Shown: one piece after another, positions 356 through 36,377 of the stretch
How the letters are laid out: each line of letters opens with the position of its first letter
Position numbering within the stretch: position 1 is the stretch's first letter
Assembly (NCBI GenBank): GCA_937980285.1
Contig: CALJQI010000063.1
Coordinates: 1-36,383, forward strand
Reading direction: 5' to 3'
From: an uncultured Gammaproteobacteria bacterium
GTDB lineage: Bacteria; Pseudomonadota; Gammaproteobacteria; GCA-001735895
DNA: 36,383 nt
The notes under the pieces: model-generated
The model's database searches: none
Seen by the model: the letters and a program-made list of their open reading frames with translations, nothing else
What the model was told of the DNA's origin: nothing
Made by a program: the position numbers and the translations under genes

Positions 356-931
356 TCAGGGTTTCTTTGCCACCACGCGCGCGCTGGCGACTCGTTCGCC
401 GTCTTGTTCGCCGATTTCGATCGATTCCTCGTACAGCAGCAATTCGAGGCCGGCGACCGCCCCGCGTAACGCACCCGGCGCCACGCGGAAATCGTCGCTG
501 CTCGGCCCGATGACATCTTCGGCGGTGATCAGGTGCTCCTCGCAGACCAGGAACCCGCCGGGCGCCAGACAATCGCACAGCCGCGTAACCAGCTCGAGAT
601 TGACGTACCACATCACCAGGATCACGTCGTAGTCGCCATCGAACTCGAACGGCCGGTCGAAGTCGTGCTCTATCCAGTTGACTTCCACTCCCTGCTCGGT
701 GGCGCTCTGGCCCGCCTTCTTCAGACCCTCGGCGGAAATGTCTATGGCGTCGACGCGGTACCCGGCCGCAGCCAGGAAAATAGCGTTGCGGCCCGCGCCG
801 CAGGCCACGTCGAGCGCCTTGCCAGGAGGCATTTTCGGCAGCCATTCGGCCACCAGGGTCACAGGGTTGTTCTTGCGATAGCTATCCTCCCGATAACGCT
901 GCTGCCACTTGATACGGTCCAGTTCGCTCAT
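356..931 (-). CDS. class I SAM-dependent methyltransferase
   Basis: ORF 356..985. SAM-binding motif I, LDVACGAGRNAIFLAAAGY. Start trimmed to the ATG at 931 (MSELDRIKWQ), which has GGAG about 9 nt upstream and lies 13 nt after the stop of the upstream gene. Confidence 0.75.
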   Translation of the reverse strand: MSELDRIKWQQRYREDSYRKNNPVTLVAEWLPKMPPGKALDVACGAGRNAIFLAAAGYRVDAIDISAEGLKKAGQSATEQGVEVNWIEHDFDRPFEFDGDYDVILVMWYVNLELVTRLCDCLAPGGFLVCEEHLITAEDVIGPSSDDFRVAPGALRGAVAGLELLLYEESIEIGEQDGERVASARVVAKKP

Positions 932-944
932 GAAACAGGCTCCT

Positions 945-3107
945 TCAGTACAGATAGTCGCCGACAATTTCAACCAGGTGATCAACCCAGCGTTCCGGAA
1001 TGCGTTCGATCAATTCCGGCGACAGCTCGAAATCCGGCTCGAACAACCGCTCCATCAGTTGCCCGCTCAGCGCGGGGTCGGAACTGGCGATATTCAGCTC
1101 GCGGTTCAGGCGCAGGCTGAAACGATCGAAATTGGCCGATCCGACGCAGGCCCAGCCGTCGTAAATGGCCGCCTTCACGTGTGAGAATCCGGGATAAATG
1201 TATACCCGAATGCCGTTATCCAGCATCACGTTGACCGCCAGTACGTTGCTGCGGGTTATCGGTCCGTGATCGGTTTCCATCGGCACCACTACGCGCACGT
1301 CCACCCCGCGCCGGCGCGCCAGCACCAGTTCGCGCAGCATGCGATCATCGGTGAAATAAGCGTTCTGGATGTAAATATGGCTCTGCGCCCGGCGTATGGC
1401 CCTCAACTGAGCGTCGTAAATTTCGTAATTTCCCGGTGCGGTGAGCAAGATCCGCATCGGGAATCCGCGCTCGCGGTTGCGCTCGTCGAAAGGCCGGGCA
1501 TGGCCGACCAGGAATCCCAGGTCGCCCATCGGACCCGCGTGCGACCAGGAGATATCGAATTCGCGCGCCAGTTTATCGACCACCGGCCCGCGCAGCTCCA
1601 TCATCAGGTCGTGCCAGTCGTAGCGATACTCGCGCCCGATATTCATACCGCCGACATAGGCGACGTTTTGATCGATCACAATCGATTTGACATGATCACC
1701 GGTGAACCAGGGATTGGTTTTCTGGCGTACCTCGACCTTTGAATCCGATTCCAGGAACCGTCGCACCGAAGGAGGCGGCACGTGAAATTCCGGCAGCGTC
1801 TCGGATTCGGACATGGTTCCGGCGATGGTGCCGAAACCATCGAGCAGCACCCTGACTTCAACGCCTTCGTTGGATCGCCGCTTCAGCAATTCACCTATCT
1901 GTACCGCGTAGTCGTCGTTATCGAATATATAGGTCTGCAGGCGAACCGACTCCTGCGCTATCGTCAGGCTGTCGATAAAGCGCGGGAAGAACTCTTCGCC
2001 ATCCACCAGCAACTCGACACTGCCGCTCGTCTGCGGGCGGCTGCCAACCCGGTCTAGCTCGAGCTCCCATTGCCGAAGGTCCATCGGCGGCAGGTCGGCG
2101 AGCGGCGGAACCGGCTTTTCGGCGAGACCGGTGGCCCAGTCGAAACGTACCGTCGCCACCGCGGTATCGGTGACCACGAAGAACAGGCGGTATAGCGACG
2201 ATACCGGTCGCAGCAGCAAATTACTCAGGTGGCTGCGCGTCAGGTGCCCGAAAGCCTGGCTATTGCGCACGCCGGCCATGCGCGTGACCGCAACCGGCTC
2301 CAGCGGCAGGTTTCTGACGAACACCAGCAGTTTGAGCTCGGTGTTTACATAGAGAAACGGCAACGAATACCAGCCGGCGTCACCGGTGTTGAATACGAAT
2401 TCGGTTTCGGTAATACCCTGCTGCAGCAGGTACTGCTGCAGTATCGGGCGCCCGCGGCGCATGAACTCGTCGAACTGCAGCACCGATTGAACCCGGTAAT
2501 TGGGCGGTTTGTCCTGCAGGCGGCTAACCCAGAGTTCGCCGCTCGGATCGTTATATAGAAAATATTCCGCATGCCCGAAATCGACTACCACGCCGGTACC
2601 ATCGTTGGGCACCACGCTGCGCAGCAGGCGATCCCTCAACAACTGCCATTGATCGGCGCCGAAGATCGGAATTTCAACGGCCTCGGCCGGCAAGCCTTGC
2701 CAGGGTTCAGACTGGCGATACTGCATCGGCACCAGGGTTGGCACGGCAAAATTCGCGGCTGGCGTGCCCGGCCGCTCTACCAGTTCGACGCGTTCGCTCC
2801 AGTTACCGCCGCTGTAATATATACGCCCGCCAAGCTGATACTTGACATAAAAATGCCCGTCGCCCCGATAGCCTTCTAGTGCAACCATCGGCAGGGTTTC
2901 CAGCTCCGAACTGTCATCCAGAACCGACAGATTCGACGACCCGCTGGCGCAGCCGGCGAGCAGCAAAATGCCGGCCACAAGCAGCGACGGCAATATCGGC
3001 GGGCGCTCGACGTTCGAACGCCGGCCACGATCCTTCGGTTCACAGGAGCCGACTTGCGCAAGCCATTTCATCTGTACATCATGGCAAACGGGCATCCGCT
3101 TTGACAA
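945..3107 (-). CDS. phospholipase D / cardiolipin-synthase-family lipoprotein with a large N-terminal domain of unknown function
   Basis: Two HKD motifs: HVKSIVIDQNVAYVGGMNIG and HVKAAIYDGWACVGSANFD. Lipobox LLLAGC|ASGS near the N-terminus. Start is uncertain: TTG 3107, ATG 3095 or ATG 3071. Confidence 0.8.
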   Translation of the reverse strand: MSKRMPVCHDVQMKWLAQVGSCEPKDRGRRSNVERPPILPSLLVAGILLLAGCASGSSNLSVLDDSSELETLPMVALEGYRGDGHFYVKYQLGGRIYYSGGNWSERVELVERPGTPAANFAVPTLVPMQYRQSEPWQGLPAEAVEIPIFGADQWQLLRDRLLRSVVPNDGTGVVVDFGHAEYFLYNDPSGELWVSRLQDKPPNYRVQSVLQFDEFMRRGRPILQQYLLQQGITETEFVFNTGDAGWYSLPFLYVNTELKLLVFVRNLPLEPVAVTRMAGVRNSQAFGHLTRSHLSNLLLRPVSSLYRLFFVVTDTAVATVRFDWATGLAEKPVPPLADLPPMDLRQWELELDRVGSRPQTSGSVELLVDGEEFFPRFIDSLTIAQESVRLQTYIFDNDDYAVQIGELLKRRSNEGVEVRVLLDGFGTIAGTMSESETLPEFHVPPPSVRRFLESDSKVEVRQKTNPWFTGDHVKSIVIDQNVAYVGGMNIGREYRYDWHDLMMELRGPVVDKLAREFDISWSHAGPMGDLGFLVGHARPFDERNRERGFPMRILLTAPGNYEIYDAQLRAIRRAQSHIYIQNAYFTDDRMLRELVLARRRGVDVRVVVPMETDHGPITRSNVLAVNVMLDNGIRVYIYPGFSHVKAAIYDGWACVGSANFDRFSLRLNRELNIASSDPALSGQLMERLFEPDFELSPELIERIPERWVDHLVEIVGDYLY

Positions 3108-3256
3108 TGACGCCGATCAATAACGCAACGCCGGCAAGATCTCGAGTCGCCGATTTCGCTGCAACAAAATAAACAGACGTCATCCCGCGTAACCGGGAAT
3201 CCGGTAATGATGGCGCCGTCACAACCCCCGGCTTGCCCGGAGATGACGGCCAGGCT

Positions 3257-3823
3257 CTAGGTTACACCGCGGTCGATCAGGTACTTGCTGTACTGCTTGT
3301 CGGTGCCGTTGATGTGATTGATGAGCCAGTTGCGCAGAAAATCGATCGCGTTTTGCATCGCGGTATCCGGATTTTTCTGGTACTCGACCAGCACCTGCTC
3401 CACCCTGGCGATCATCAGCTCATGCTCGGCTCTGTGCGTGGTAAAATCCGGGTAATCATTCTTTTCCATCAGGTCTTCTTCGTAACTGAAGTGGGTTTTG
3501 GTGTAATCCACCAGCGCATCCAGCGCCTCTTGCTCGTAATCCGCGCCGGCCGAATAATCAATCGCGGTCTGCAGGCTGTTGATCAGGCCGATCAGCTTCT
3601 TGTGCTGGCGGTCGATGGAATCGATGCCGACGCTGTATTCATCCTTCCATTCGACATACTGCCTGGCGGTCAACTTGCGGTGCAGGAACGGCAATAACAC
3701 CACCAGCGCCACCAGTAACCAGGTCAAAGGATTCGACGGGCTGCTGACAAGCCCCAAAATGGCCGCCGTGATCAACGTCAGGATCAATATGGCGACACCA
3801 AACATTCGTACTTTGTTGTTCAT
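3257..3823 (-). CDS. membrane-anchored bacteriohemerythrin (hemerythrin-like metal-binding domain)
   Basis: Di-iron ligand motifs: DRQHKKL, HFSYEE, HRAEHEL and WLINHINGTDKQY. Two N-terminal hydrophobic segments. Start set to the ATG at 3823 (MNNKVRMFG) with GAGG upstream. Confidence 0.85.
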   Translation of the reverse strand: MNNKVRMFGVAILILTLITAAILGLVSSPSNPLTWLLVALVVLLPFLHRKLTARQYVEWKDEYSVGIDSIDRQHKKLIGLINSLQTAIDYSAGADYEQEALDALVDYTKTHFSYEEDLMEKNDYPDFTTHRAEHELMIARVEQVLVEYQKNPDTAMQNAIDFLRNWLINHINGTDKQYSKYLIDRGVT

Positions 3824-4832: not shown

Positions 4833-5127
4833 TCTTATCCTGTCGGCATCGCCCGTTGCCGCCGCGGATGGCATCAGCGGCGAGCGCGAACAGGAATTGC
4901 AAAACCTGCTAATCCAGGACTGCGGCTCCTGTCATGGCCTGCAGATGAAGGGCGGGCTGGGGCCCGCGTTGCTGCCGGAAGCGTTACGCGGCAAATCCGC
5001 CGAATACCTGAGCACGGTCATCCTGCACGGCAGAACCGGAACCGCGATGCCGCCCTGGCGATTCCTGCTGTCAGAAGCGGAAGCGCGATGGATGGCCGAG
5101 CGCCTGCTGCAGGGGGTAACGCAATGA
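4804..5127 (+). CDS. nirC: periplasmic mono-heme cytochrome c (c55X, NirC-like)
   Basis: Signal peptide, CGSCHG heme motif and a distal Met (GTAMPPW). Position between nirE and nirF. Overlaps the nirE 3' end. Confidence 0.8.
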   Translation: MKAITWLALSLILSASPVAAADGISGEREQELQNLLIQDCGSCHGLQMKGGLGPALLPEALRGKSAEYLSTVILHGRTGTAMPPWRFLLSEAEARWMAERLLQGVTQ

Positions 5128-6290
5128 TCAGGGTTATCGCCAGCCTGGCCTTTCTGTTATTGATCAACACCCCGGCGATGGCACGCGGCACCGGCGATCT
5201 GGGCCTGTTTATCGAACGCGCCAGCAGTAGCGTGCAAATCGTCGAAACCAGCAGCAACACCAGTATCGGCAGCGTCGCCGGGCTCGGCGACCTGTCGCAC
5301 GCCTCGGTGGTCTACTCACGCGACCAGCGTTACGCCTACATCTTCGGGCGCGACGGCGGACTGACCAAGGTCGACATTCTCAAAGCCGAAATCAGCCAGC
5401 GCAAGCTGCAGTCGGGCAACAGTATCGGCGGCGCGATCTCGCAGGACGGCCGCCTGGTCGCGGTATCCAACTACAAGCCCGGCGGCGTCAAGGTGTTCGA
5501 TGCCGATACGCTCGAGCTGGTGGCCGACATTCCCGCCACATTCGGCGACAACAATCAACGTTCCAAGGTCATCGGGCTGGTCGACGCGCCCGAGGGCAAG
5601 TTCGTGTTCGCGCTGTGGGACGCCGGTGAAATCTGGGTACTCGACATGAGCCAGCGCGACCGGCCTGTCATCGAAAAATTCAAAAACATCGGGCGCAACC
5701 CTTATGACGCGCTGATTACCGGCGACGGGCGTTATTACATAGCCGGCCTGTTCGGCGAAGACGGCATGGCGATGCTGGACCTGTGGAACCCGTCGGCCGG
5801 GGTTAAACGCATTCTGCCGGACTACGGCAAAGGCGAACAGAAACTGCCGGTTTTCAAGATGCCGCACCTGGAAGGCTGGGCGGTCGCCGGCGATCTCGCT
5901 TTCGTGCCGGCGATCGGCGCTCACGAGGTACTGGTAATCAATATGCGCGACTGGCAGGAGGCCGGCCGCATCAAGGTGCACGGCCAGCCGATTTTCGTCA
6001 TGGCACGCCCCGACGGTCGCCAGGTGTGGGTTAATTTCGCCATTCCCAACAACGATACCATCCAGGTAATCGACACCCAGACGCTTGCCGTAATCAAGCA
6101 ACTCAAGCCCGGCAAGGGCGTGTTGCACATGGAATTCGAGCCCCGCGGCGAGGAAGTCTGGCTATCGGTGCGCGACGAGAACCGGGTCGAGGTTTACGAT
6201 ACCCGCAGCTTCGAACGCCGCAACACAATCCCGGCCACCAAACCCAGCGGCATATTCTTTACCGCGCGCGCGCACAGGATCGGGCTATGA
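5124..6290 (+). CDS. nirF: cytochrome d1-domain protein NirF (heme d1 biosynthesis)
   Basis: About 390-aa beta-propeller-like protein with a signal sequence (MIRVIASLAFLLLINTPAMA). The ATG at 5124 overlaps the nirC stop (ATGA). Position matches the nirCFDLGHJ order of Pseudomonas. Confidence 0.8.
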   Translation: MIRVIASLAFLLLINTPAMARGTGDLGLFIERASSSVQIVETSSNTSIGSVAGLGDLSHASVVYSRDQRYAYIFGRDGGLTKVDILKAEISQRKLQSGNSIGGAISQDGRLVAVSNYKPGGVKVFDADTLELVADIPATFGDNNQRSKVIGLVDAPEGKFVFALWDAGEIWVLDMSQRDRPVIEKFKNIGRNPYDALITGDGRYYIAGLFGEDGMAMLDLWNPSAGVKRILPDYGKGEQKLPVFKMPHLEGWAVAGDLAFVPAIGAHEVLVINMRDWQEAGRIKVHGQPIFVMARPDGRQVWVNFAIPNNDTIQVIDTQTLAVIKQLKPGKGVLHMEFEPRGEEVWLSVRDENRVEVYDTRSFERRNTIPATKPSGIFFTARAHRIGL

Positions 6291-6745
6291 GACAGTTTTC
6301 CAAACTGGAGCAACGCCTGCTCAACGAATTCCAGCAGGGCATGCCGCTGACGCCGAATCCCTACGCCGATATCGCAAGGCAGCTGGGAGTTTACGAAACC
6401 ACGGTACTGGAAACGCTCTCTCGCCTGCAGACCGAAGGCGTAATCAGCCGAGTCGGCGCCGTGTTTCGACCCAATCGCGTCGGCGCCAGCACGCTGGCGG
6501 CAATGACGGTTCCGGAAAGCGAAGTCGAAGCGGTTGCCGCCATCATCAATGATTTCGACGAGGTTAATCACAACTACGAGCGTGAACACGAATTCAACCT
6601 GTGGTTCGTGGTAGTCGCGGAGGACGAAGACCGACTGCAGGCGGTGCTTGCGGAAATCGAAGCGGCCTGCGGTTACGCGGTGATGGACCTGCCGCTGGAA
6701 GACGAGTTTTTTATCGACCTGGGGTTTGATCTGAAATGGACATGA
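6287..6745 (+). CDS. nirD: siroheme decarboxylase subunit NirD (AsnC/Lrp-like)
   Basis: LLNEFQQGMPLTPNPYADIA N-terminal HTH-like module and the HNYEREHEFNLWFVV motif. ATGA overlap with nirF. Confidence 0.85.
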   Translation: MRQFSKLEQRLLNEFQQGMPLTPNPYADIARQLGVYETTVLETLSRLQTEGVISRVGAVFRPNRVGASTLAAMTVPESEVEAVAAIINDFDEVNHNYEREHEFNLWFVVVAEDEDRLQAVLAEIEAACGYAVMDLPLEDEFFIDLGFDLKWT

Positions 6746-7272
6746 TCAAGGACACCGCCTTCGAATGCGCGCTGATCGAGATCATCAGCAAGGGCCTGCC
6801 GCTGGTGAGCCATCCCTACGCGGCTATTGCCGAACAGCTCGGCAGCAGCGAGGCCGAGGTCATCGACGGCATCCAGCGCATTATGATGCGCGGCGACCTG
6901 AAGCGGTTCGGCGTCGTCGTCAGGCATCGCCAGCTGGGCTATCGCGCCAACGGCATGGTGGTATGGGATATTCCTGACGATCGCGTCAAGGAAGTCGGTC
7001 ACTGCCTCGGCCAGTACAGCTTCGTAACCCTTTGCTATCAGCGCCCGCGCCGGCTTCCGGACTGGCGTTACAACCTGTTCAGCATGATTCACGGCCAGGA
7101 TCGCGACGCGGTCGCCGAACAGGTAGAGCTGGTCGTCGAACAATGCGGCCTGCAGGGCATCGATCACCAGATACTGTTCAGCCGTCGTTGCTTCAAGCAG
7201 CGCGGCGCCAGTTACAGCCGCCGGCAGTCCGGCGAGTTCGGCAGCCGCCGTGGAACCGCCCTCAGTGGATGA
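6736..7272 (+). CDS. nirL: siroheme decarboxylase subunit NirL
   Basis: IISKGLPLVSHPYAAIA module and a PDWRYNLFSMIHG motif paralogous to NirD/G/H. Overlaps neighbours on both sides. Confidence 0.8.
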   Translation: MDMIKDTAFECALIEIISKGLPLVSHPYAAIAEQLGSSEAEVIDGIQRIMMRGDLKRFGVVVRHRQLGYRANGMVVWDIPDDRVKEVGHCLGQYSFVTLCYQRPRRLPDWRYNLFSMIHGQDRDAVAEQVELVVEQCGLQGIDHQILFSRRCFKQRGASYSRRQSGEFGSRRGTALSG

Positions 7273-8242
7273 GCTGGCGCGACAGTTTCTCAATCGCTAC
7301 CAGGGCGGTTTTCCGATTGCCGAACAGCCTTTCGTCGACATCGCCGAAGCGCTCGAGACCGATGTCGAAACGCTGATCGACAGCATCCGGCAACTGCTGC
7401 AGGACGGCACGCTAAGCCGCTTCGGTCCGCTTTACGATGCGGCCAGCATGGGCGGCAGTATTACGCTGGCCGCCCTGTCGGTACCGCAGGAGCGCTTCGA
7501 CGAGGTGGCGGAAATGGTAAACGCCATGCCCGAGGTGGCGCATAATTACCAGCGCGAGCACGAACTCAACATGTGGTTTGTCATCGCCACCGAGTCCCCT
7601 GAACTGCTGCAACAGGCGATCGGCCAGATCGAGCAAACCGCCAACCTGCCGGTTTACAACTTCCCCAAGCTGCAGACTTTTTATCTCGGCCTGCAGATAT
7701 CGCTGGACCAGGCGGGCAATGTCGGCACGCAACCGATTCCGGGCCCGCTGAAACAGGGCGGCATGATCATCGATGAACTCGATCGCAGCATCGTACGGGC
7801 GACCCAGGAAGGCTTGCCGGTACAGAAAGCGCCCTATACCGAGATCGCCTCGATATGCGGCTGCGACACCGACACCGTGCTGCGGCGCATGCGGCGCATG
7901 ATCGACCGCGGCGTGATCCGGCGCATCGGCGCGATTCCGAACCATTATCGCCTGGGGCTGCACGGCAACGGCATGTCGGTGTGGGACGTCAATGACGACA
8001 AGCTGGCGGAACTCGGCGCGCGCGTCGGCCGCCTGGATTTTGTCAGCCACTGCTATGAACGCCCGCGCCACCTGCCGCGCTGGCCCTATAACCTGTTTGC
8101 AATGGTGCACGGCCACGACCGCGACGAAGTAACCGACAAACTGAGCGAAATAGCCAGCCTGCTAGGCTCCGACTGCCGGCAACACGATGTGCTTTTCAGC
8201 ACCCGAATACTCAAGAAAACCGGATTGAGGTTAGTAGACTAA
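7250..8242 (+). CDS. nirGH: fused siroheme decarboxylase subunits NirG-NirH
   Basis: 330 aa carrying two tandem NirD-like modules: FLNRYQGGFPIAEQPF...HNYQREHELNMWFVI, then IVRATQEGLPVQKAPY...PRWPYNLFAMVHG. Start is GTG 7250, or possibly GTG 7265. Confidence 0.8.
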   Translation: MEPPSVDELARQFLNRYQGGFPIAEQPFVDIAEALETDVETLIDSIRQLLQDGTLSRFGPLYDAASMGGSITLAALSVPQERFDEVAEMVNAMPEVAHNYQREHELNMWFVIATESPELLQQAIGQIEQTANLPVYNFPKLQTFYLGLQISLDQAGNVGTQPIPGPLKQGGMIIDELDRSIVRATQEGLPVQKAPYTEIASICGCDTDTVLRRMRRMIDRGVIRRIGAIPNHYRLGLHGNGMSVWDVNDDKLAELGARVGRLDFVSHCYERPRHLPRWPYNLFAMVHGHDRDEVTDKLSEIASLLGSDCRQHDVLFSTRILKKTGLRLVD

Positions 8243-33600: not shown

Positions 33601-34209
33601 TTAATCGAGCAGCAACTGCCCTATTGCAAGCAACTTCTTCTTGTCTCGCGGCGTTAACTGCGCATACAGCGTCAGCAGGTCCTGCATGTCTTCGGCCAGG
33701 TAAGGCCCCGCTTCGGCGCCCGCGACGGGCGCGTCTATCCAGCCGCGGCGCTGGCCGAGAAACTTTTCGCAGCGCCTGGCCATAAGATCGGGGATTTTGG
33801 CGTAGGGATTATTGCGAAATTTACGCATGCGTTCGAGCGGTAATTTTATCGCCGCCAGGTACTCGGGCAGGATGCCTTCTTTCTCGGCCCGATCGAGCGC
33901 ATCGATGAATTTGCGGTAGCGATTGGAATGCACTTCCGCCGGCCGCGGTGCGCCGATGCCATAGGTCAGCCAGCCCGGATCGATGTTGAGCGCCTCACAG
34001 AATTGCAGCGTCTCATCGACGCCCGGCGTCGACAACCCGGTTTCATAATTGTGGATGCGTCCGGCGCTCCAGCCGAGGCGCTGGCTGAGTTCTCGGCTGT
34101 TGGTTTCCTTTGCCATCAGGCGTGCCTGGCGAATGCGCTTGCCGATCTTGAGGTAGAGTGGATTGCGCGCGGATTTGTCTTTGATCAGAGCTGGTTTTTT
34201 AACTTGCAT
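33601..34209 (-). CDS. XRE-family helix-turn-helix transcriptional regulator with a C-terminal domain of unknown function
   Basis: HTH region IGKRIRQARLMAKETNSRELSQRLGWSAGRIHNYETGLSTPGVDETLQFCEAL. Start set to ATG 34209. Confidence 0.8.
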   Translation of the reverse strand: MQVKKPALIKDKSARNPLYLKIGKRIRQARLMAKETNSRELSQRLGWSAGRIHNYETGLSTPGVDETLQFCEALNIDPGWLTYGIGAPRPAEVHSNRYRKFIDALDRAEKEGILPEYLAAIKLPLERMRKFRNNPYAKIPDLMARRCEKFLGQRRGWIDAPVAGAEAGPYLAEDMQDLLTLYAQLTPRDKKKLLAIGQLLLD

Positions 34210-34227
34210 GCACGCGAGTTTAACAAA

Positions 34228-34279
34228 ATCCAAATTTCTTGGATATATTTCTTGCAATATCCAAATTTTTGGCTATTAT
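34228..34279 (+). promoter_or_regulatory. sigma70-type rightward promoter flanked and overlapped by two related operator repeats
   Basis: -35 TTGCAA (34252-34257), a 16-nt spacer, and -10 TATTAT (34274-34279). Operator-like ATCCAA-ATTTC-TTGGAT (34228-34244) and ATCCAA-ATTT-TTGGCT (34259-34274), the second inside the spacer. The 10-mer ATCCAAATTT recurs 31 nt apart. Confidence 0.55.
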
Positions 34280-34331
34280 ACGCTGCCACTGAAATCAGGC
34301 GACAGTGCGCCACATTAAACTGGAAAGAGAA

Positions 34332-34487
34332 ATGTTTTCATTACAGCCATCGCAAATATCCACCTACCGGACAGGTTATACCAGCCTGACGGGCGGCTGT
34401 GCGCATGACTGGAACAGAAAGCAACCCAGTTTTGTGGCGCTTGATCTCCGCCCCGAAGGCAATCTGAAAGGAATTGATATGCGGTAA
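34332..34487 (+). CDS. possible 51-aa leader / Cro-position small ORF
   Basis: ATG preceded by GGAAAGAG. The TAA stop ends 1 nt before the hairpin at 34489. Codon third positions are not GC-biased as in neighbouring genes, so coding status is doubtful. Confidence 0.25.
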   Translation: MFSLQPSQISTYRTGYTSLTGGCAHDWNRKQPSFVALDLRPEGNLKGIDMR

Positions 34488-34548
34488 TCCTCCGTCTTCA
34501 TACGGGAGGTTGCTGCAACGCAGACACCTCCCGAGTATCTTCCGAGAA

Positions 34549-34594
34549 CCCCGGTTGGTGTCTTCAAAACGCATCACCGGGGTTTTTGCGTTTT
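34549..34594 (+). terminator. intrinsic terminator
   Basis: 11-bp stem CCCCGGT(T)GGTG / CATCACCGGGG with an 11-nt loop, followed by TTTTTGCGTTTT. Confidence 0.7.
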
Positions 34595-34615
34595 ACGACT
34601 TAAAAAAAAGCCCCG

Positions 34616-34652
34616 CGCTGACCTCGTTCGGCAGCGTGTAGCTCTTTAACAA
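34616..34652 (+). promoter_or_regulatory. rrn-type antitermination signature: boxB-like hairpin + boxA
   Basis: Hairpin 34616-34620/34632-34636, plus 34622-34623/34630-34631. Three nt later comes AGCTCTTTAACAA (34640-34652), 12/13 identical to the E. coli rrn boxA TGCTCTTTAACAA. Confidence 0.6.
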
Positions 34653-34659
34653 TCTGGAA

Positions 34660-35116
34660 TACTGAATTGGCCGTCGCAAGGAGCGATGGCCGGTAAGCCG
34701 CTCCCGTGGACCCGAGGGGGCGGCTGTATGGCGCATCGGGTCAGCGGGATGGGTGAGCCGGAGACCCGAAAGCGCAGCCGGCAGCGCCAGAGAATTTCGT
34801 GGTCTGGCACGGATAAATTGCGCAAGCAATGAAAGGGGGAAATCCTTCAGTACCCCGCCCGGCAACGGGTCGACCCAGAAAAACCTCGTCCCCTCGCCTT
34901 CAGCTCGGCTGGAGGTAGCGATCAACACTCGCCAGGGATAAGGGGGAGCGCTTTCAGTCCGAGCTTCCCAGACAAGGGCGGAGCGCAGTTCCAGGGGCGC
35001 GGGGTATCGCAGGATAGCCCGCATCCCGAAGAGCACCTGGCGATCGAACAGAAAATTCGAACACCATTTTTAACAGGATTCCTGCTCACGCGGGAATGAC
35101 TGACTGGATCCTTTTT
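34660..35116 (+). ncRNA. candidate large structured RNA / structured rtcB leader (unclassified)
   Basis: No credible ORF. At least 9 hand-foldable helices with strand-specific G-U pairs. Two GCAA tetraloops. The 19-nt motif AAGGGGGA-N5-TTCAGT occurs twice. Three TTCAG-containing loops at 53-54-nt spacing. Ends are inferred, not observed. Confidence 0.45.
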
Positions 35117-35145
35117 CATTAAACTAAAGCCACAGGAGGTTAATC

Positions 35146-36336
35146 ATGATCAAGATGAAAATGACCAAGGGAAAGTCGCCGGTACTGGTGTGGACCGACG
35201 ACGTTGAATCATCCGCGCATGATCAACTGGCACGCATGGCTAACCTTTCGATCGTGCACAGCCACATCGCGGTGATGCCCGACGTCCACATGGGCAAGGG
35301 CGCCACCGTCGGCTCGGTCATCCCGACGCGGGAAGCGATCATCCCGGCAGCGGTCGGAGTCGATATTGGCTGCGGTATGTGTGCGCTGCGAACCTCGCTG
35401 CATGCCGACCAACTGCCGGAATCACTGCGTCAGCTGCGTAACCAGATCGAACGCGACGTTCCGGTCGGTTTCGACATGCACAGCAACCGCCGTGCACGCT
35501 TCGAGGCGGCTGCCGCGGTCGAACCCGGACTGAAGCAGATCCTGGATCGACATCCCGGCATCGCTTCGAAATCACGCAACAAGGATGCCTGGGCACGCCA
35601 GATCGGTACCCTGGGTGGCGGCAACCACTTCATCGAGCTGTGCCTGGACGAAGAAGACCGCGTCTGGGTCATGCTGCATTCCGGCAGCCGCGGCATCGGT
35701 AACAGAATCGGCCAGTACTTCATCGAAAAGGCAAAGGAGGTGATCGCTAAAACCGACGTTCAACTGCCGGACAGGGATCTGGCTTACCTGGTCGAGGGAA
35801 GCGGCCTGTTCGCCGACTACTGGCAGGCGCTGACCTGGGCGCAGGAGTACGCGTCCCGCAACCGGCAGGAAATGCTGGATATCGTGCTCGAGGCGCTAGC
35901 AAGGCATTTGCCGCCGTTCGAGCTGGATGAAGCAGCGATCAACTGCCACCACAACTACGCGGCCAGGGAAGTCCATGACGGCACCGAAATCTACGTTACC
36001 CGCAAGGGCGCGATTCGTGCCGGCGCCGGAGAGCTGGGAATCATTCCCGGCTCGATGGGGGCGAGGTCTTACATCGTACGCGGCAAGGGCAACGCGAAAT
36101 CGTTCTGTTCCTGCGCGCACGGTGCCGGACGGCGCATGTCGCGTAGCGCCGCAAGGAAGCACTTTACCCGGGACGATCTGCTGGAGCAGACCGAGGGCGT
36201 CGAATGCCGCAAGGATAAGGGCGTCATCGATGAAATCCCGGGGGCCTACAAGGACATCGACCAGGTCATGGAAAACCAGGTCGACCTGGTCGAAACCGTG
36301 CATACCCTGAAGCAGGTGCTGTGCGTCAAGGGCTGA
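35146..36336 (+). CDS. rtcB: RNA 3'-phosphate/5'-OH ligase RtcB
   Basis: AGGAGG SD (35134-35139). Motifs MPDVHMGKG, GVDIGCGM, GTLGGGNHFIE, HSGSRGIG, PGSMG and CAHGAGR (nucleophilic His). Confidence 0.92.
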   Translation: MIKMKMTKGKSPVLVWTDDVESSAHDQLARMANLSIVHSHIAVMPDVHMGKGATVGSVIPTREAIIPAAVGVDIGCGMCALRTSLHADQLPESLRQLRNQIERDVPVGFDMHSNRRARFEAAAAVEPGLKQILDRHPGIASKSRNKDAWARQIGTLGGGNHFIELCLDEEDRVWVMLHSGSRGIGNRIGQYFIEKAKEVIAKTDVQLPDRDLAYLVEGSGLFADYWQALTWAQEYASRNRQEMLDIVLEALARHLPPFELDEAAINCHHNYAAREVHDGTEIYVTRKGAIRAGAGELGIIPGSMGARSYIVRGKGNAKSFCSCAHGAGRRMSRSAARKHFTRDDLLEQTEGVECRKDKGVIDEIPGAYKDIDQVMENQVDLVETVHTLKQVLCVKG

Positions 36337-36347
36337 CCGGGGTCCTG

Positions 36348-36377
36348 GAGCCGGGCGGGAATCCGCCCGTCCGGCTC
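36348..36377 (+). terminator. strong hairpin after rtcB (possible terminator; U-tract weak and truncated by the window end)
   Basis: 12-bp stem GAGCCGGGCGGG / CCGCCCGTCCGGCTC-type pairing with one G-U, followed by ATTTCA and then the window end. Confidence 0.4.

What the first reader, a model, noticed from the sequence alone, without database searches (positions are those of the whole stretch)
34616..34652. rrn-type boxB/boxA antitermination signal outside any rRNA operon
AGCTCTTTAACAA (34640-34652) matches 12/13 positions of the E. coli rrn boxA (TGCTCTTTAACAA), the NusB/NusE loading site. It is preceded 3 nt upstream by a hairpin, which is the boxB-then-boxA order of rrn leaders.

It lies at the entry to about 500 nt of untranslated, structured sequence, which would otherwise be a natural Rho target. 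A boxA here implies that the long untranslated transcript is deliberately protected so that transcription reaches the end of the RNA and/or rtcB. No rRNA gene is present in the window.
Basis: partly seen in the sequence, partly recalled or inferred. Interest (0 to 1): 0.6.

Follow-up and report, generated by a model that had tools for sequence, protein, structure and literature searches.

The report
rRNA-type boxA before RtcB operon
The flagged 13 bases are very likely a genuine copy of the signal that ribosomal RNA operons use to load anti-termination factors, here heading a repressor-controlled operon of a large folded RNA, in relatives a string of tRNA genes, and the RNA-repair ligase gene rtcB.

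Summary
AGCTCTTTAACAAT (34640-34653) follows a 9-bp hairpin (34614-34638). Its core equals the boxA in the rrn leaders of four same-genus genomes; the window's own genome bin (MAG) has no assembled rRNA. It also fits the published gammaproteobacterial consensus GYTCTTTAANA.

The element sits at the same place in all 24 homologous loci that reach that far (22 fit the consensus). Its columns are 97% conserved, against 65-69% for the flanks. It recurs in two distant families whose regulators are only 27-29% identical, and in one of them it equals that host's rrn boxA over 19 nt.

The operon reads: XRE repressor, leader ORF, attenuator terminator, boxB/boxA, ~390-nt covarying RNA, 0-15 tRNA genes (none here), rtcB.

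A new point: the boxA 3' half plus the next 17 nt pairs with a trailer just past rtcB in 11 of 11 loci (-28 to -43 kcal/mol). This resembles an rrn leader-trailer helix.

NusB and Rho genes are present. The RNA is G-rich, so "natural Rho target" is unproven. This scan noted the same architecture before on other DNA (tRNA arrays, phages). It is a new member of a known kind.

The parts
33601..34212 (-). Divergent XRE-family helix-turn-helix regulator (203 aa), the presumed repressor of the operon.
   Evidence: Pfam HTH_19 and HTH_3. Conserved upstream of the operon in every locus that reaches that far. Distant homologues in three other families head similar operons.
34228..34279 (+). Sigma-70-like promoter (TTGCAA, 16 nt, TATTAT at 34252-34279) overlapped by two TCCAAA(N4-5)TTGG inverted repeats, the presumed operators.
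   Evidence: Consensus scan and the sequence itself. The same layout is seen in G022. No other promoter-like site lies between here and boxA on the + strand.
34332..34487 (+). 51-codon leader ORF ending in an invariant ATG-CGG-TAA.
   Evidence: Conserved at protein level (37-83% identity) with an in-frame 15-nt indel in G022. The end of the ORF is invariant in 18 distinct leaders. No Pfam family.
34488..34594 (+). Mutually exclusive hairpins followed by an intrinsic terminator (stem about 34543-34588, then a U-run), forming the attenuator.
   Evidence: The fold of 34480-34660 has z = -5.2. Conserved in 18 leaders and in the distant loci G422, G292 and G302.
34614..34638 (+). boxB-like hairpin (9 bp, hexaloop).
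   Evidence: Predicted. Pair counts with double changes at two pairs. rrn leaders of the same genus and of G422 also place a hairpin directly before boxA.
34641..34652 (+). boxA: GCTCTTTAACAA, with A before and T after.
   Evidence: 97% column conservation. Fits the consensus GYTCTTTAANA of PMC5725501. Unpaired in the local fold.
34645..34669 (+). Leader strand of an operon-spanning leader-trailer helix. It overlaps the 3' half of boxA.
   Evidence: Complementary to a trailer about 50 nt past the rtcB stop in 11 of 11 loci. In this genome the trailer lies on contig C340 (locus L031, 1500-1530). The end of C340 overlaps the end of the window over 40 nt with 1 mismatch.
34655..35036 (+). About 390-nt structured non-coding RNA. 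Its 3' end (GAAGAGC, 35028-35034) can pair with boxA bases 1-7.
   Evidence: Alignments and consensus fold. Variable inserted hairpins in G060, L059 and L063. No Rfam match. The 7-bp closing helix is kept at 5-7 of 7 pairs.
35146..36336 (+). rtcB, encoding the RNA 3'-phosphate ligase.
   Evidence: Pfam RtcB, E = 7.5e-133.
36348..36377 (+). G+C-rich hairpin after rtcB without a proper U-run. The trailer strand follows it off-window.
   Evidence: Sequence. Same arrangement in 10 other loci.

Best explanation
The element is a functional rrn-type boxA, with a boxB-like hairpin before it.

Proposed course of events:
1. Transcription starts at the XRE-controlled promoter near 34286 and runs through a 51-codon leader ORF.
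2. It must then pass an attenuator terminator at about 34543-34594.
3. Polymerases that get through next transcribe the hairpin and boxA.
4. The boxA RNA binds NusB-NusE(S10). Together with NusA, NusG and SuhB, this converts the polymerase into a processive, Rho-resistant form.
5. The polymerase can then cross the untranslated folded RNA (and up to about 1.5 kb of tRNA genes in relatives) and still reach rtcB.

Because boxA stays tethered to the polymerase, the adjoining leader strand is at hand when the complementary trailer emerges after rtcB. The two then close a helix of about 25 bp around the whole unit, as in pre-rRNA. That helix is a likely RNase III substrate, and it would also bury boxA at the end of the operon.

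Shown here: sequence identity with rrn boxA, positional conservation, the operon layout, and the complementarity of leader and trailer. Inferred: factor binding, anti-termination, and processing.
For: 1. Match to rrn boxA. The core and the following T equal the rrn-leader boxA of four same-genus genomes. Two of these loci run into 16S rRNA, and two are near-identical leaders cut at contig ends.
2. Published consensus. The element is a perfect fit to GYTCTTTAANA, derived for gamma-proteobacteria (PMC5725501).
3. Conservation in close relatives. It is present at the same place in 24 of 24 homologous loci (16 GCTCTTTAACAA, 6 GTTCTTTAACAA, 2 with one further change). Column conservation is 0.97, against 0.69 for the spacer before it and 0.65 for the hairpin after it.
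4. Conservation in distant relatives. In G422 and G302 the regulator is 27-29% identical and (G422) RtcB 64% identical, and G302 is visibly A+T-rich. Both keep a boxA just after the attenuator terminator and before the RNA and tRNAs. In G422 a 19-nt stretch, CGGGATGCTCTTTAACAAT, is shared with that genome's rrn leader 147 nt before 16S.
5. Conservation not explained by pairing. boxA bases 1-4 stay fixed although the trailer is often not complementary there.
6. Setting. The downstream stretch before rtcB is long and untranslated: 0.5 kb here and up to about 2 kb in relatives.
7. Host factors. NusB and Rho genes are present in this genome.
8. Precedent. boxA acts outside rrn at suhB and at CRISPR arrays (PMC5725501; PMC7862264 citing Stringer 2020). 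In this genus a boxA also lies 105 nt before a CRISPR repeat.
9. rrn model. boxA anchors the leader strand so that it meets the trailer (PMC10250234).
Against: - No experimental or transcript evidence.
- The window's own rrn operons are not assembled, so the comparison rests on congeners.
- The same bases take part in two RNA helices, which could account for part of their conservation.
- The RNA behind boxA is G-rich and tightly folded, which makes it a poor Rho substrate. tRNA genes are also poor substrates, so the need for anti-termination is not obvious.
- There is no boxC-like TGTGTGGG after boxA, unlike the rrn leaders.
- One distant homologous operon (G292) has no boxA within one mismatch of the consensus.
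- Two close loci carry changes inside the core (L056 C4T, L065 A8C).
Confidence: 0.72

Rival explanations
1. The bases are conserved only as one strand of RNA helices: the leader-trailer helix, plus a 7-bp helix closing the folded RNA. On this reading the likeness to boxA is incidental and no Nus factors are involved.
For: The leader-trailer duplex is present in 11 of 11 loci at -28 to -43 kcal/mol. It shows two compensatory changes: L056 changes C-G to U-A, and G060 swaps A-U to U-A. boxA bases 1-7 can pair with the RNA's 3' end at 5-7 of 7 positions in all loci.
Against: Pairing does not demand this sequence, yet it equals the lineage's rrn boxA in two separate lineages. The trailer varies opposite boxA bases 1-4 and at A7 (A-C mismatch in half the loci) while boxA does not change. 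G422 keeps boxA but has no detectable trailer within 9 kb.
Confidence: 0.13
2. boxA does bind Nus factors, but it acts negatively as at suhB. It would promote Rho termination or block translation, giving feedback from Nus or ribosome status onto the operon.
For: boxA-dependent repression is documented for suhB and hisG (PMC5725501; PMC12360218). The operon is linked to translation stress by its leader ORF and attenuator, and by analogy with PMC8421152.
Against: At suhB the boxA lies close to the ribosome-binding site. Here it is 495 nt from the rtcB start, and up to about 2 kb away in relatives, with stable RNAs in between. The rrn-like order (hairpin, boxA, leader strand) points to the rrn mode.
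Confidence: 0.07
3. The element is a phage-type nut site that needs an element-encoded N-like protein bound to the hairpin.
For: The layout recalls lambda pR-cro-nutR: a divergent repressor, a small ORF, then the hairpin and boxA. The hairpin loop is semi-conserved as NNGTTC or NNATTC.
Against: The order is boxB then boxA, and the boxA is a full rrn-type one rather than the weaker lambda type. No N-like gene was found: the 51-aa ORF has no arginine-rich motif and no Pfam hit. There is no similarity to phage or plasmid records.
Confidence: 0.04
4. The match is a chance occurrence with no function.
For: A match with up to 2 mismatches arises in 31 of 100 shuffles of the window. The 12-mer is about as frequent as its reversed control genome-wide.
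Against: Positional conservation in 24 of 24 loci and in two other families.
Confidence: 0.02

Closest known systems
rrn operon leader of Gammaproteobacteria: boxB-boxA-boxC, the rrn antitermination complex (NusA/B/E/G, SuhB, S4), and the leader-trailer helix cut by RNase III
   Same: Same order of hairpin then boxA. The boxA sequence is identical to rrn leaders of the same genus and of G422. A leader strand next to boxA pairs with a trailer kilobases downstream (model in PMC10250234). The product is largely stable, untranslated RNA.
   Different: No rRNA is present. There is no boxC motif, and the leader strand starts inside boxA instead of 18-19 nt after it. The unit enclosed contains a protein-coding gene (rtcB). 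Entry is gated by a repressor and a leader-ORF attenuator instead of growth-rate-controlled P1/P2 promoters.
boxA upstream of CRISPR arrays (Stringer et al. 2020, eLife 9:e58182, as cited in PMC7862264)
   Same: A boxA placed before a long untranslated, repetitive RNA outside rrn, thought to prevent premature Rho termination. This genus has one too, 105 nt before a CRISPR repeat (L015).
   Different: Different cargo. No leader-trailer helix has been reported there, and no attenuator lies upstream.
suhB 5'-UTR boxA and other mRNA-leader boxA elements (Baniulyte et al. 2017, PMC5725501)
   Same: Same consensus GYTCTTTAANA, and a non-rRNA target linked to translation and RNA metabolism.
   Different: Those lie within 50 nt of a start codon and repress. 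This one lies 0.5-2 kb upstream of the first gene and heads stable RNAs.
Long tRNA gene arrays co-regulated with rtcB under translational stress (Anabaena; PMC8421152), and tRNA arrays carrying GOLLD RNA (Morgado 2020, cited in PMC12286853)
   Same: Accessory tRNA arrays next to or co-regulated with rtcB. A large structured RNA lies beside the tRNAs.
   Different: No boxA, attenuator or leader-trailer helix is mentioned in the Anabaena paper (0 occurrences). Regulation there is through direct repeats in promoters. The window itself has lost the tRNAs. The Rfam GOLLD model gives no match here.
Phage lambda nutR/nutL
   Same: boxA plus a hairpin in an early transcript, downstream of a repressor-controlled promoter and a small ORF.
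   Different: Order reversed. The boxA is of the full rrn type, and there is no N-like protein.

Membership tests
rrn-type boxA (NusB-NusE loading site) | Sequence fits the gammaproteobacterial boxA consensus GYTCTTTAANA. | tested here: met
   GCTCTTTAACA at 34641-34651. The consensus is quoted from PMC5725501. 22 of 24 homologous loci fit it.
rrn-type boxA (NusB-NusE loading site) | Same sequence as the boxA of the organism's own rrn leaders. | tested here: inconclusive
   The window's own genome bin (MAG) has no assembled 16S or 23S. Four same-genus rrn leaders carry GCTCTTTAACAAT, identical to the window. In the distant G422, the operon boxA equals the rrn boxA over 19 nt.
rrn-type boxA (NusB-NusE loading site) | Lies in the sense strand of a transcribed, untranslated leader and is single-stranded when made. 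| tested here: met
   It is downstream of the only predicted + strand promoter and in the operon's orientation. It is unpaired in the local fold.
rrn-type boxA (NusB-NusE loading site) | Conserved in position across homologous loci while the flanks vary. | tested here: met
   Found in 24 of 24 loci. Column conservation is 0.97 against 0.65-0.69 for the flanks. Also found in two other families.
rrn-type boxA (NusB-NusE loading site) | The host encodes NusB and Rho. | tested here: met
   PF01029 and PF07497 matches above the cut-off in G000.
rrn-type boxA (NusB-NusE loading site) | Binds NusB-NusE, and mutation abolishes Nus/SuhB recruitment and read-through. | not testable with these tools
   Needs gel shift, ChIP or reporter assays.
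rrn leader (boxB-boxA-boxC) | boxC (TGTGTGGG) 18-19 nt after boxA. | tested here: not met
   Present in the genus's and G422's rrn leaders. Absent after the window's boxA, where TCTGGAATACTGAAT follows.
Leader-trailer helix of stable-RNA operons | More than 17 bp of complementarity between the leader and a distant trailer, kept across relatives. | tested here: met
   20-27 bp in 11 of 11 loci. Free energy is -28 to -43 kcal/mol against a shuffle mean of -10 to -16. There are two compensatory changes and recurrent U-G pairs in the sense strand. Not found in G422.
Leader-trailer helix of stable-RNA operons | Cleaved by RNase III, or needed for maturation. | not testable with these tools
   Needs RNA end mapping in wild-type and rnc strains.
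GOLLD RNA (Rfam RF02032), for the RNA behind boxA | Match to the family covariance model. | tested here: not met
No match at E up to 10 in the window, in four homologous loci or in five whole genomes. The model may not represent the variable 5' domain.

The most novel reading that the evidence does not exclude
The island copies the whole rRNA biogenesis scheme for a stress-induced stable-RNA unit. boxA loads the Nus complex only on polymerases that escaped a translation-sensing attenuator. The tethered leader strand then captures the trailer after rtcB, so that one helix of about 25 bp encloses the folded RNA, the tRNAs and the rtcB message. That helix would do three things at once. It would bury boxA and so dissolve the anti-termination complex at the operon's end. 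It would give RNase III a site that frees the unit from the leader ORF. It would also hold the two ends together, where the operon's own ligase, RtcB, could in principle join them.
Probability: 0.25. Interest if true: 0.75.

Novelty: new member of a known kind. Interest (0 to 1): 0.55.

Why it matters
boxA-directed Nus complexes were long seen as dedicated to rRNA. The documented exceptions are few: suhB, some mRNA leaders, and CRISPR arrays. This locus adds an accessory tRNA/large-RNA/RtcB operon that is gated by a repressor and a leader-peptide attenuator. It shows the element tracking the host's rrn boxA in separate lineages.

It also offers a natural case in which a leader-trailer helix encloses a protein-coding gene, which is a way to ask what such helices and the Nus complex do beyond ribosome assembly.

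On the practical side, any attempt to express these tRNA/RtcB islands, or the large RNA, should keep boxA and both helix strands.

Tried and rejected
- **Known RNA families.** Rfam found nothing at gathering thresholds across the window. A permissive scan of 34150-35250 gave only noise-level hits. GOLLD (RF02032) gave nothing at E up to 10.
- **Own rrn boxA.** No 16S or 23S is assembled in this 66%-complete genome bin, nor in G046, so I used congeners.
- **Genome-wide motif counts.** The 12-mer and the 11-mer consensus occur about as often as reversed controls. Counts alone carry no weight.
- **Minus-strand ORF 34593-35036 (147 aa) as a gene.** Rejected. It has no Pfam hit, and indels of 1-2 nt plus inserted hairpins separate the homologues.
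- **Inverted repeat as the ends of a mobile element or an invertible segment.** The repressor and leader ORF always lie outside it. All 11 loci show one orientation. In five of ten distinct loci the two copies differ by T versus C at one position, which gives U-G in the sense RNA. Judged unlikely but not excluded.
- **Pairing of TCTGG (34653-34657) with CCAGA inside the RNA.** Not supported. The TCCGG variants give C-A mismatches.
- **Second promoter between the terminator and boxA.** None found.
- **Phage or plasmid relatives of the RNA.** None found.
- **Trailer strand in G422.** No specific duplex found.

Full report
**What is there**

The window is contig C63 of a 66%-complete gammaproteobacterial genome bin (MAG). 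AGCTCTTTAACAAT occupies 34640-34653. It is the only match in the window to the E. coli rrn boxA with up to 2 mismatches. Such a match alone is not significant, since 31 of 100 shuffles also give one.

Directly before it, positions 34614-34638 form a 9-bp hairpin. No rRNA or any other Rfam family is found in the window.

**The surroundings form one operon**

- A divergent XRE-type regulator lies at 33601-34212.
- A sigma-70-like promoter with two inverted-repeat operators lies at 34228-34279.
- A 51-codon ORF runs from 34332 to 34487.
- Alternative hairpins and an intrinsic terminator end near 34594.
- Then come the hairpin and boxA, a folded RNA of about 390 nt ending at 35036, and rtcB at 35146-36336.
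- No other promoter-like site lies between the first promoter and boxA. boxA is therefore reached only by polymerases that pass the terminator.

**Relatives**

Four same-genus genomes (G046, G022, G069, G060) and 22 metagenome contigs carry the same operon.

The RNA is non-coding and structured. Homologues differ by 1-2-nt indels and by inserted hairpins. The consensus fold has 21 pairs with double changes.

The main surprise is what lies between this RNA and rtcB. Relatives carry arrays of 2 to 15 tRNA genes there. The window and contig L050 are variants without tRNAs. The unit behind boxA is thus up to about 2 kb of untranslated stable RNA followed by one gene.

The operon is accessory. It was found in 5 of 60 other genomes of the genus that were searched.

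**Is the motif a boxA?**

The bin lacks rRNA. Four congeners, however, have GCTCTTTAACAAT preceded by a hairpin and followed by TGTGTGGG. In two of them 16S rRNA begins about 80-150 nt downstream. The window's element is identical over these 13 bases. It also fits GYTCTTTAANA, the consensus derived for gamma-proteobacteria (PMC5725501).

All 24 homologous loci that extend far enough have the element at the same place:

| Variant | Loci |
|---|---|
| GCTCTTTAACAA | 16 |
| GTTCTTTAACAA | 6 |
| GCTTTTTAACAA | 1 |
| GTTCTTTCACAA | 1 |

In 18 distinct leaders, the boxA columns are 97% conserved. The spacer before the hairpin is 69% conserved and the first helix of the RNA 65%. The hairpin keeps its pairs, with double changes at two of them.

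**Distant relatives**

A search of 400 genomes of the class with the regulator found three remote homologues at 27-32% identity. Each heads a similar unit: leader ORF, terminator, tRNAs, and (in two of them) an RtcB 63-64% identical to the window's.

Two of the three have a boxA just after the terminator. These are G422 and the visibly A+T-rich G302. G292 has none. In G422 the stretch CGGGATGCTCTTTAACAAT is shared between this operon and the genome's rrn leader, 147 nt before 16S. An element that stays equal to the host's rrn boxA while everything around it diverges is hard to explain except by recognition by the same factors.

NusB and Rho genes are present in the window's genome.

**A second role for the same bases**

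In every one of the 11 loci that extend past rtcB (10 distinct), a sequence about 50 nt after the stop codon is complementary to the boxA 3' half plus the next 17 nt. The window coordinates are 34645-34669, and the arms lie 1.7-3.4 kb apart.

Duplex free energies are -28 to -43 kcal/mol, against shuffle means of -10 to -16. In this genome the trailer lies at the end of contig C340, which overlaps the end of the window.

Two loci show compensatory changes. A recurrent T/C difference between the copies gives U-G in the sense RNA. This favours an RNA helix over a DNA-level repeat.

The arrangement parallels the leader-trailer helix of pre-rRNA. There, boxA bound to NusB is thought to hold the leader strand near the RNA exit until the trailer appears (PMC10250234).

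A weaker 7-bp helix may join boxA bases 1-7 to the 3' end of the folded RNA.

These pairings could explain some of the conservation, but not all of it. boxA bases 1-4 stay fixed where the trailer is not complementary. G422 keeps boxA without a detectable trailer. A degenerate locus (G074) has lost the regulator, boxA, the trailer and most of the RNA together.

**Limits**

Nothing here shows binding or read-through.

The statement that the RNA is a natural Rho target is doubtful on composition. It is G-rich (C/G 0.88), with one C-rich window at 34826-34925 that is predicted to be paired. The Nus complex may matter here as much for speed and for folding or closing the long-range helix as for blocking Rho.

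There is no boxC.

**Relation to what is known**

boxA outside rrn is established for suhB and other leaders (PMC5725501) and for CRISPR arrays (Stringer 2020, cited in PMC7862264). A congener has a boxA 105 nt before a CRISPR repeat.

Accessory tRNA arrays co-regulated with rtcB under translational stress are described in Anabaena (PMC8421152). tRNA arrays with the large GOLLD RNA are also described (PMC12286853). A full-text search found no paper linking boxA with tRNA arrays or GOLLD.

Earlier notes of this scan describe the same architecture on other DNA: boxA, an end-joining helix, and a leader ORF plus terminator before tRNA arrays, some of them in phages. One note calls the RNA here half a GOLLD. 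The Rfam GOLLD model does not match it, so I leave that open.

**Verdict**

It is a new member of a known kind, with an rrn-like leader-trailer helix as an added feature.

Noticed in passing
L029 (G022) 5102-6134; L038 (G046) 6696-8075; L039, L040; metagenome loci L046-L066: Relatives carry 2-15 tRNA genes between the folded RNA and rtcB. Lys(ttt), Asn, His, Asp, Cys, Arg, Gln and Tyr recur, which are the tRNA classes cut by known anticodon nucleases. The window and L050 are tRNA-less variants of the same operon.
   Followed up: partly
window 34645-34669 and L031 (own genome, contig C340) about 1500-1530: A 20-27-bp inverted complementarity brackets the RNA-(tRNA)-rtcB unit in 11 of 11 loci. 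The window's contig ends inside the hairpin just before the trailer copy.
   Followed up: yes
window 34479-34487 and 18 homologous leaders: The leader ORF always ends ATG-CGG-TAA (Met-Arg-stop), immediately before mutually exclusive hairpins and the terminator. This looks like a ribosome-sensing attenuator.
   Followed up: partly
L015 (G010:C151) 1369-1512, minus strand: A perfect GCTCTTTAACAAT lies 105 nt upstream of a single type I-F-like CRISPR repeat (Rfam CRISPR-DR4). No further repeats were found in the next 1.3 kb.
   Followed up: partly
L041 (G074:C116) 857-2400, minus strand: A decayed copy of the operon. It has a fragment of the RNA about 130 nt long, a tRNA 3' fragment and an intact rtcB. 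It has no regulator, no boxA and no trailer.
   Followed up: partly
L074 (G422:C34), oriented positions 2143-2215: ARAGORN calls a tRNA with anticodon tta (an ochre-suppressor type) inside the distant homologous operon. In G302 the array also holds a tRNA-like gene with an abnormal anticodon loop.
   Followed up: no
L029 (G022) 2915-3502, minus strand: Directly after the trailer strand lies a 195-aa ORF whose Cys/His pattern looks HNH-nuclease-like by eye. No family search was run. The gene after the trailer differs between genomes.
   Followed up: no
window 34614-34638 and homologues: The loop of the boxB-like hairpin is semi-conserved (NNGTTC or NNATTC), more than a mere spacer hairpin would need.
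   Followed up: no
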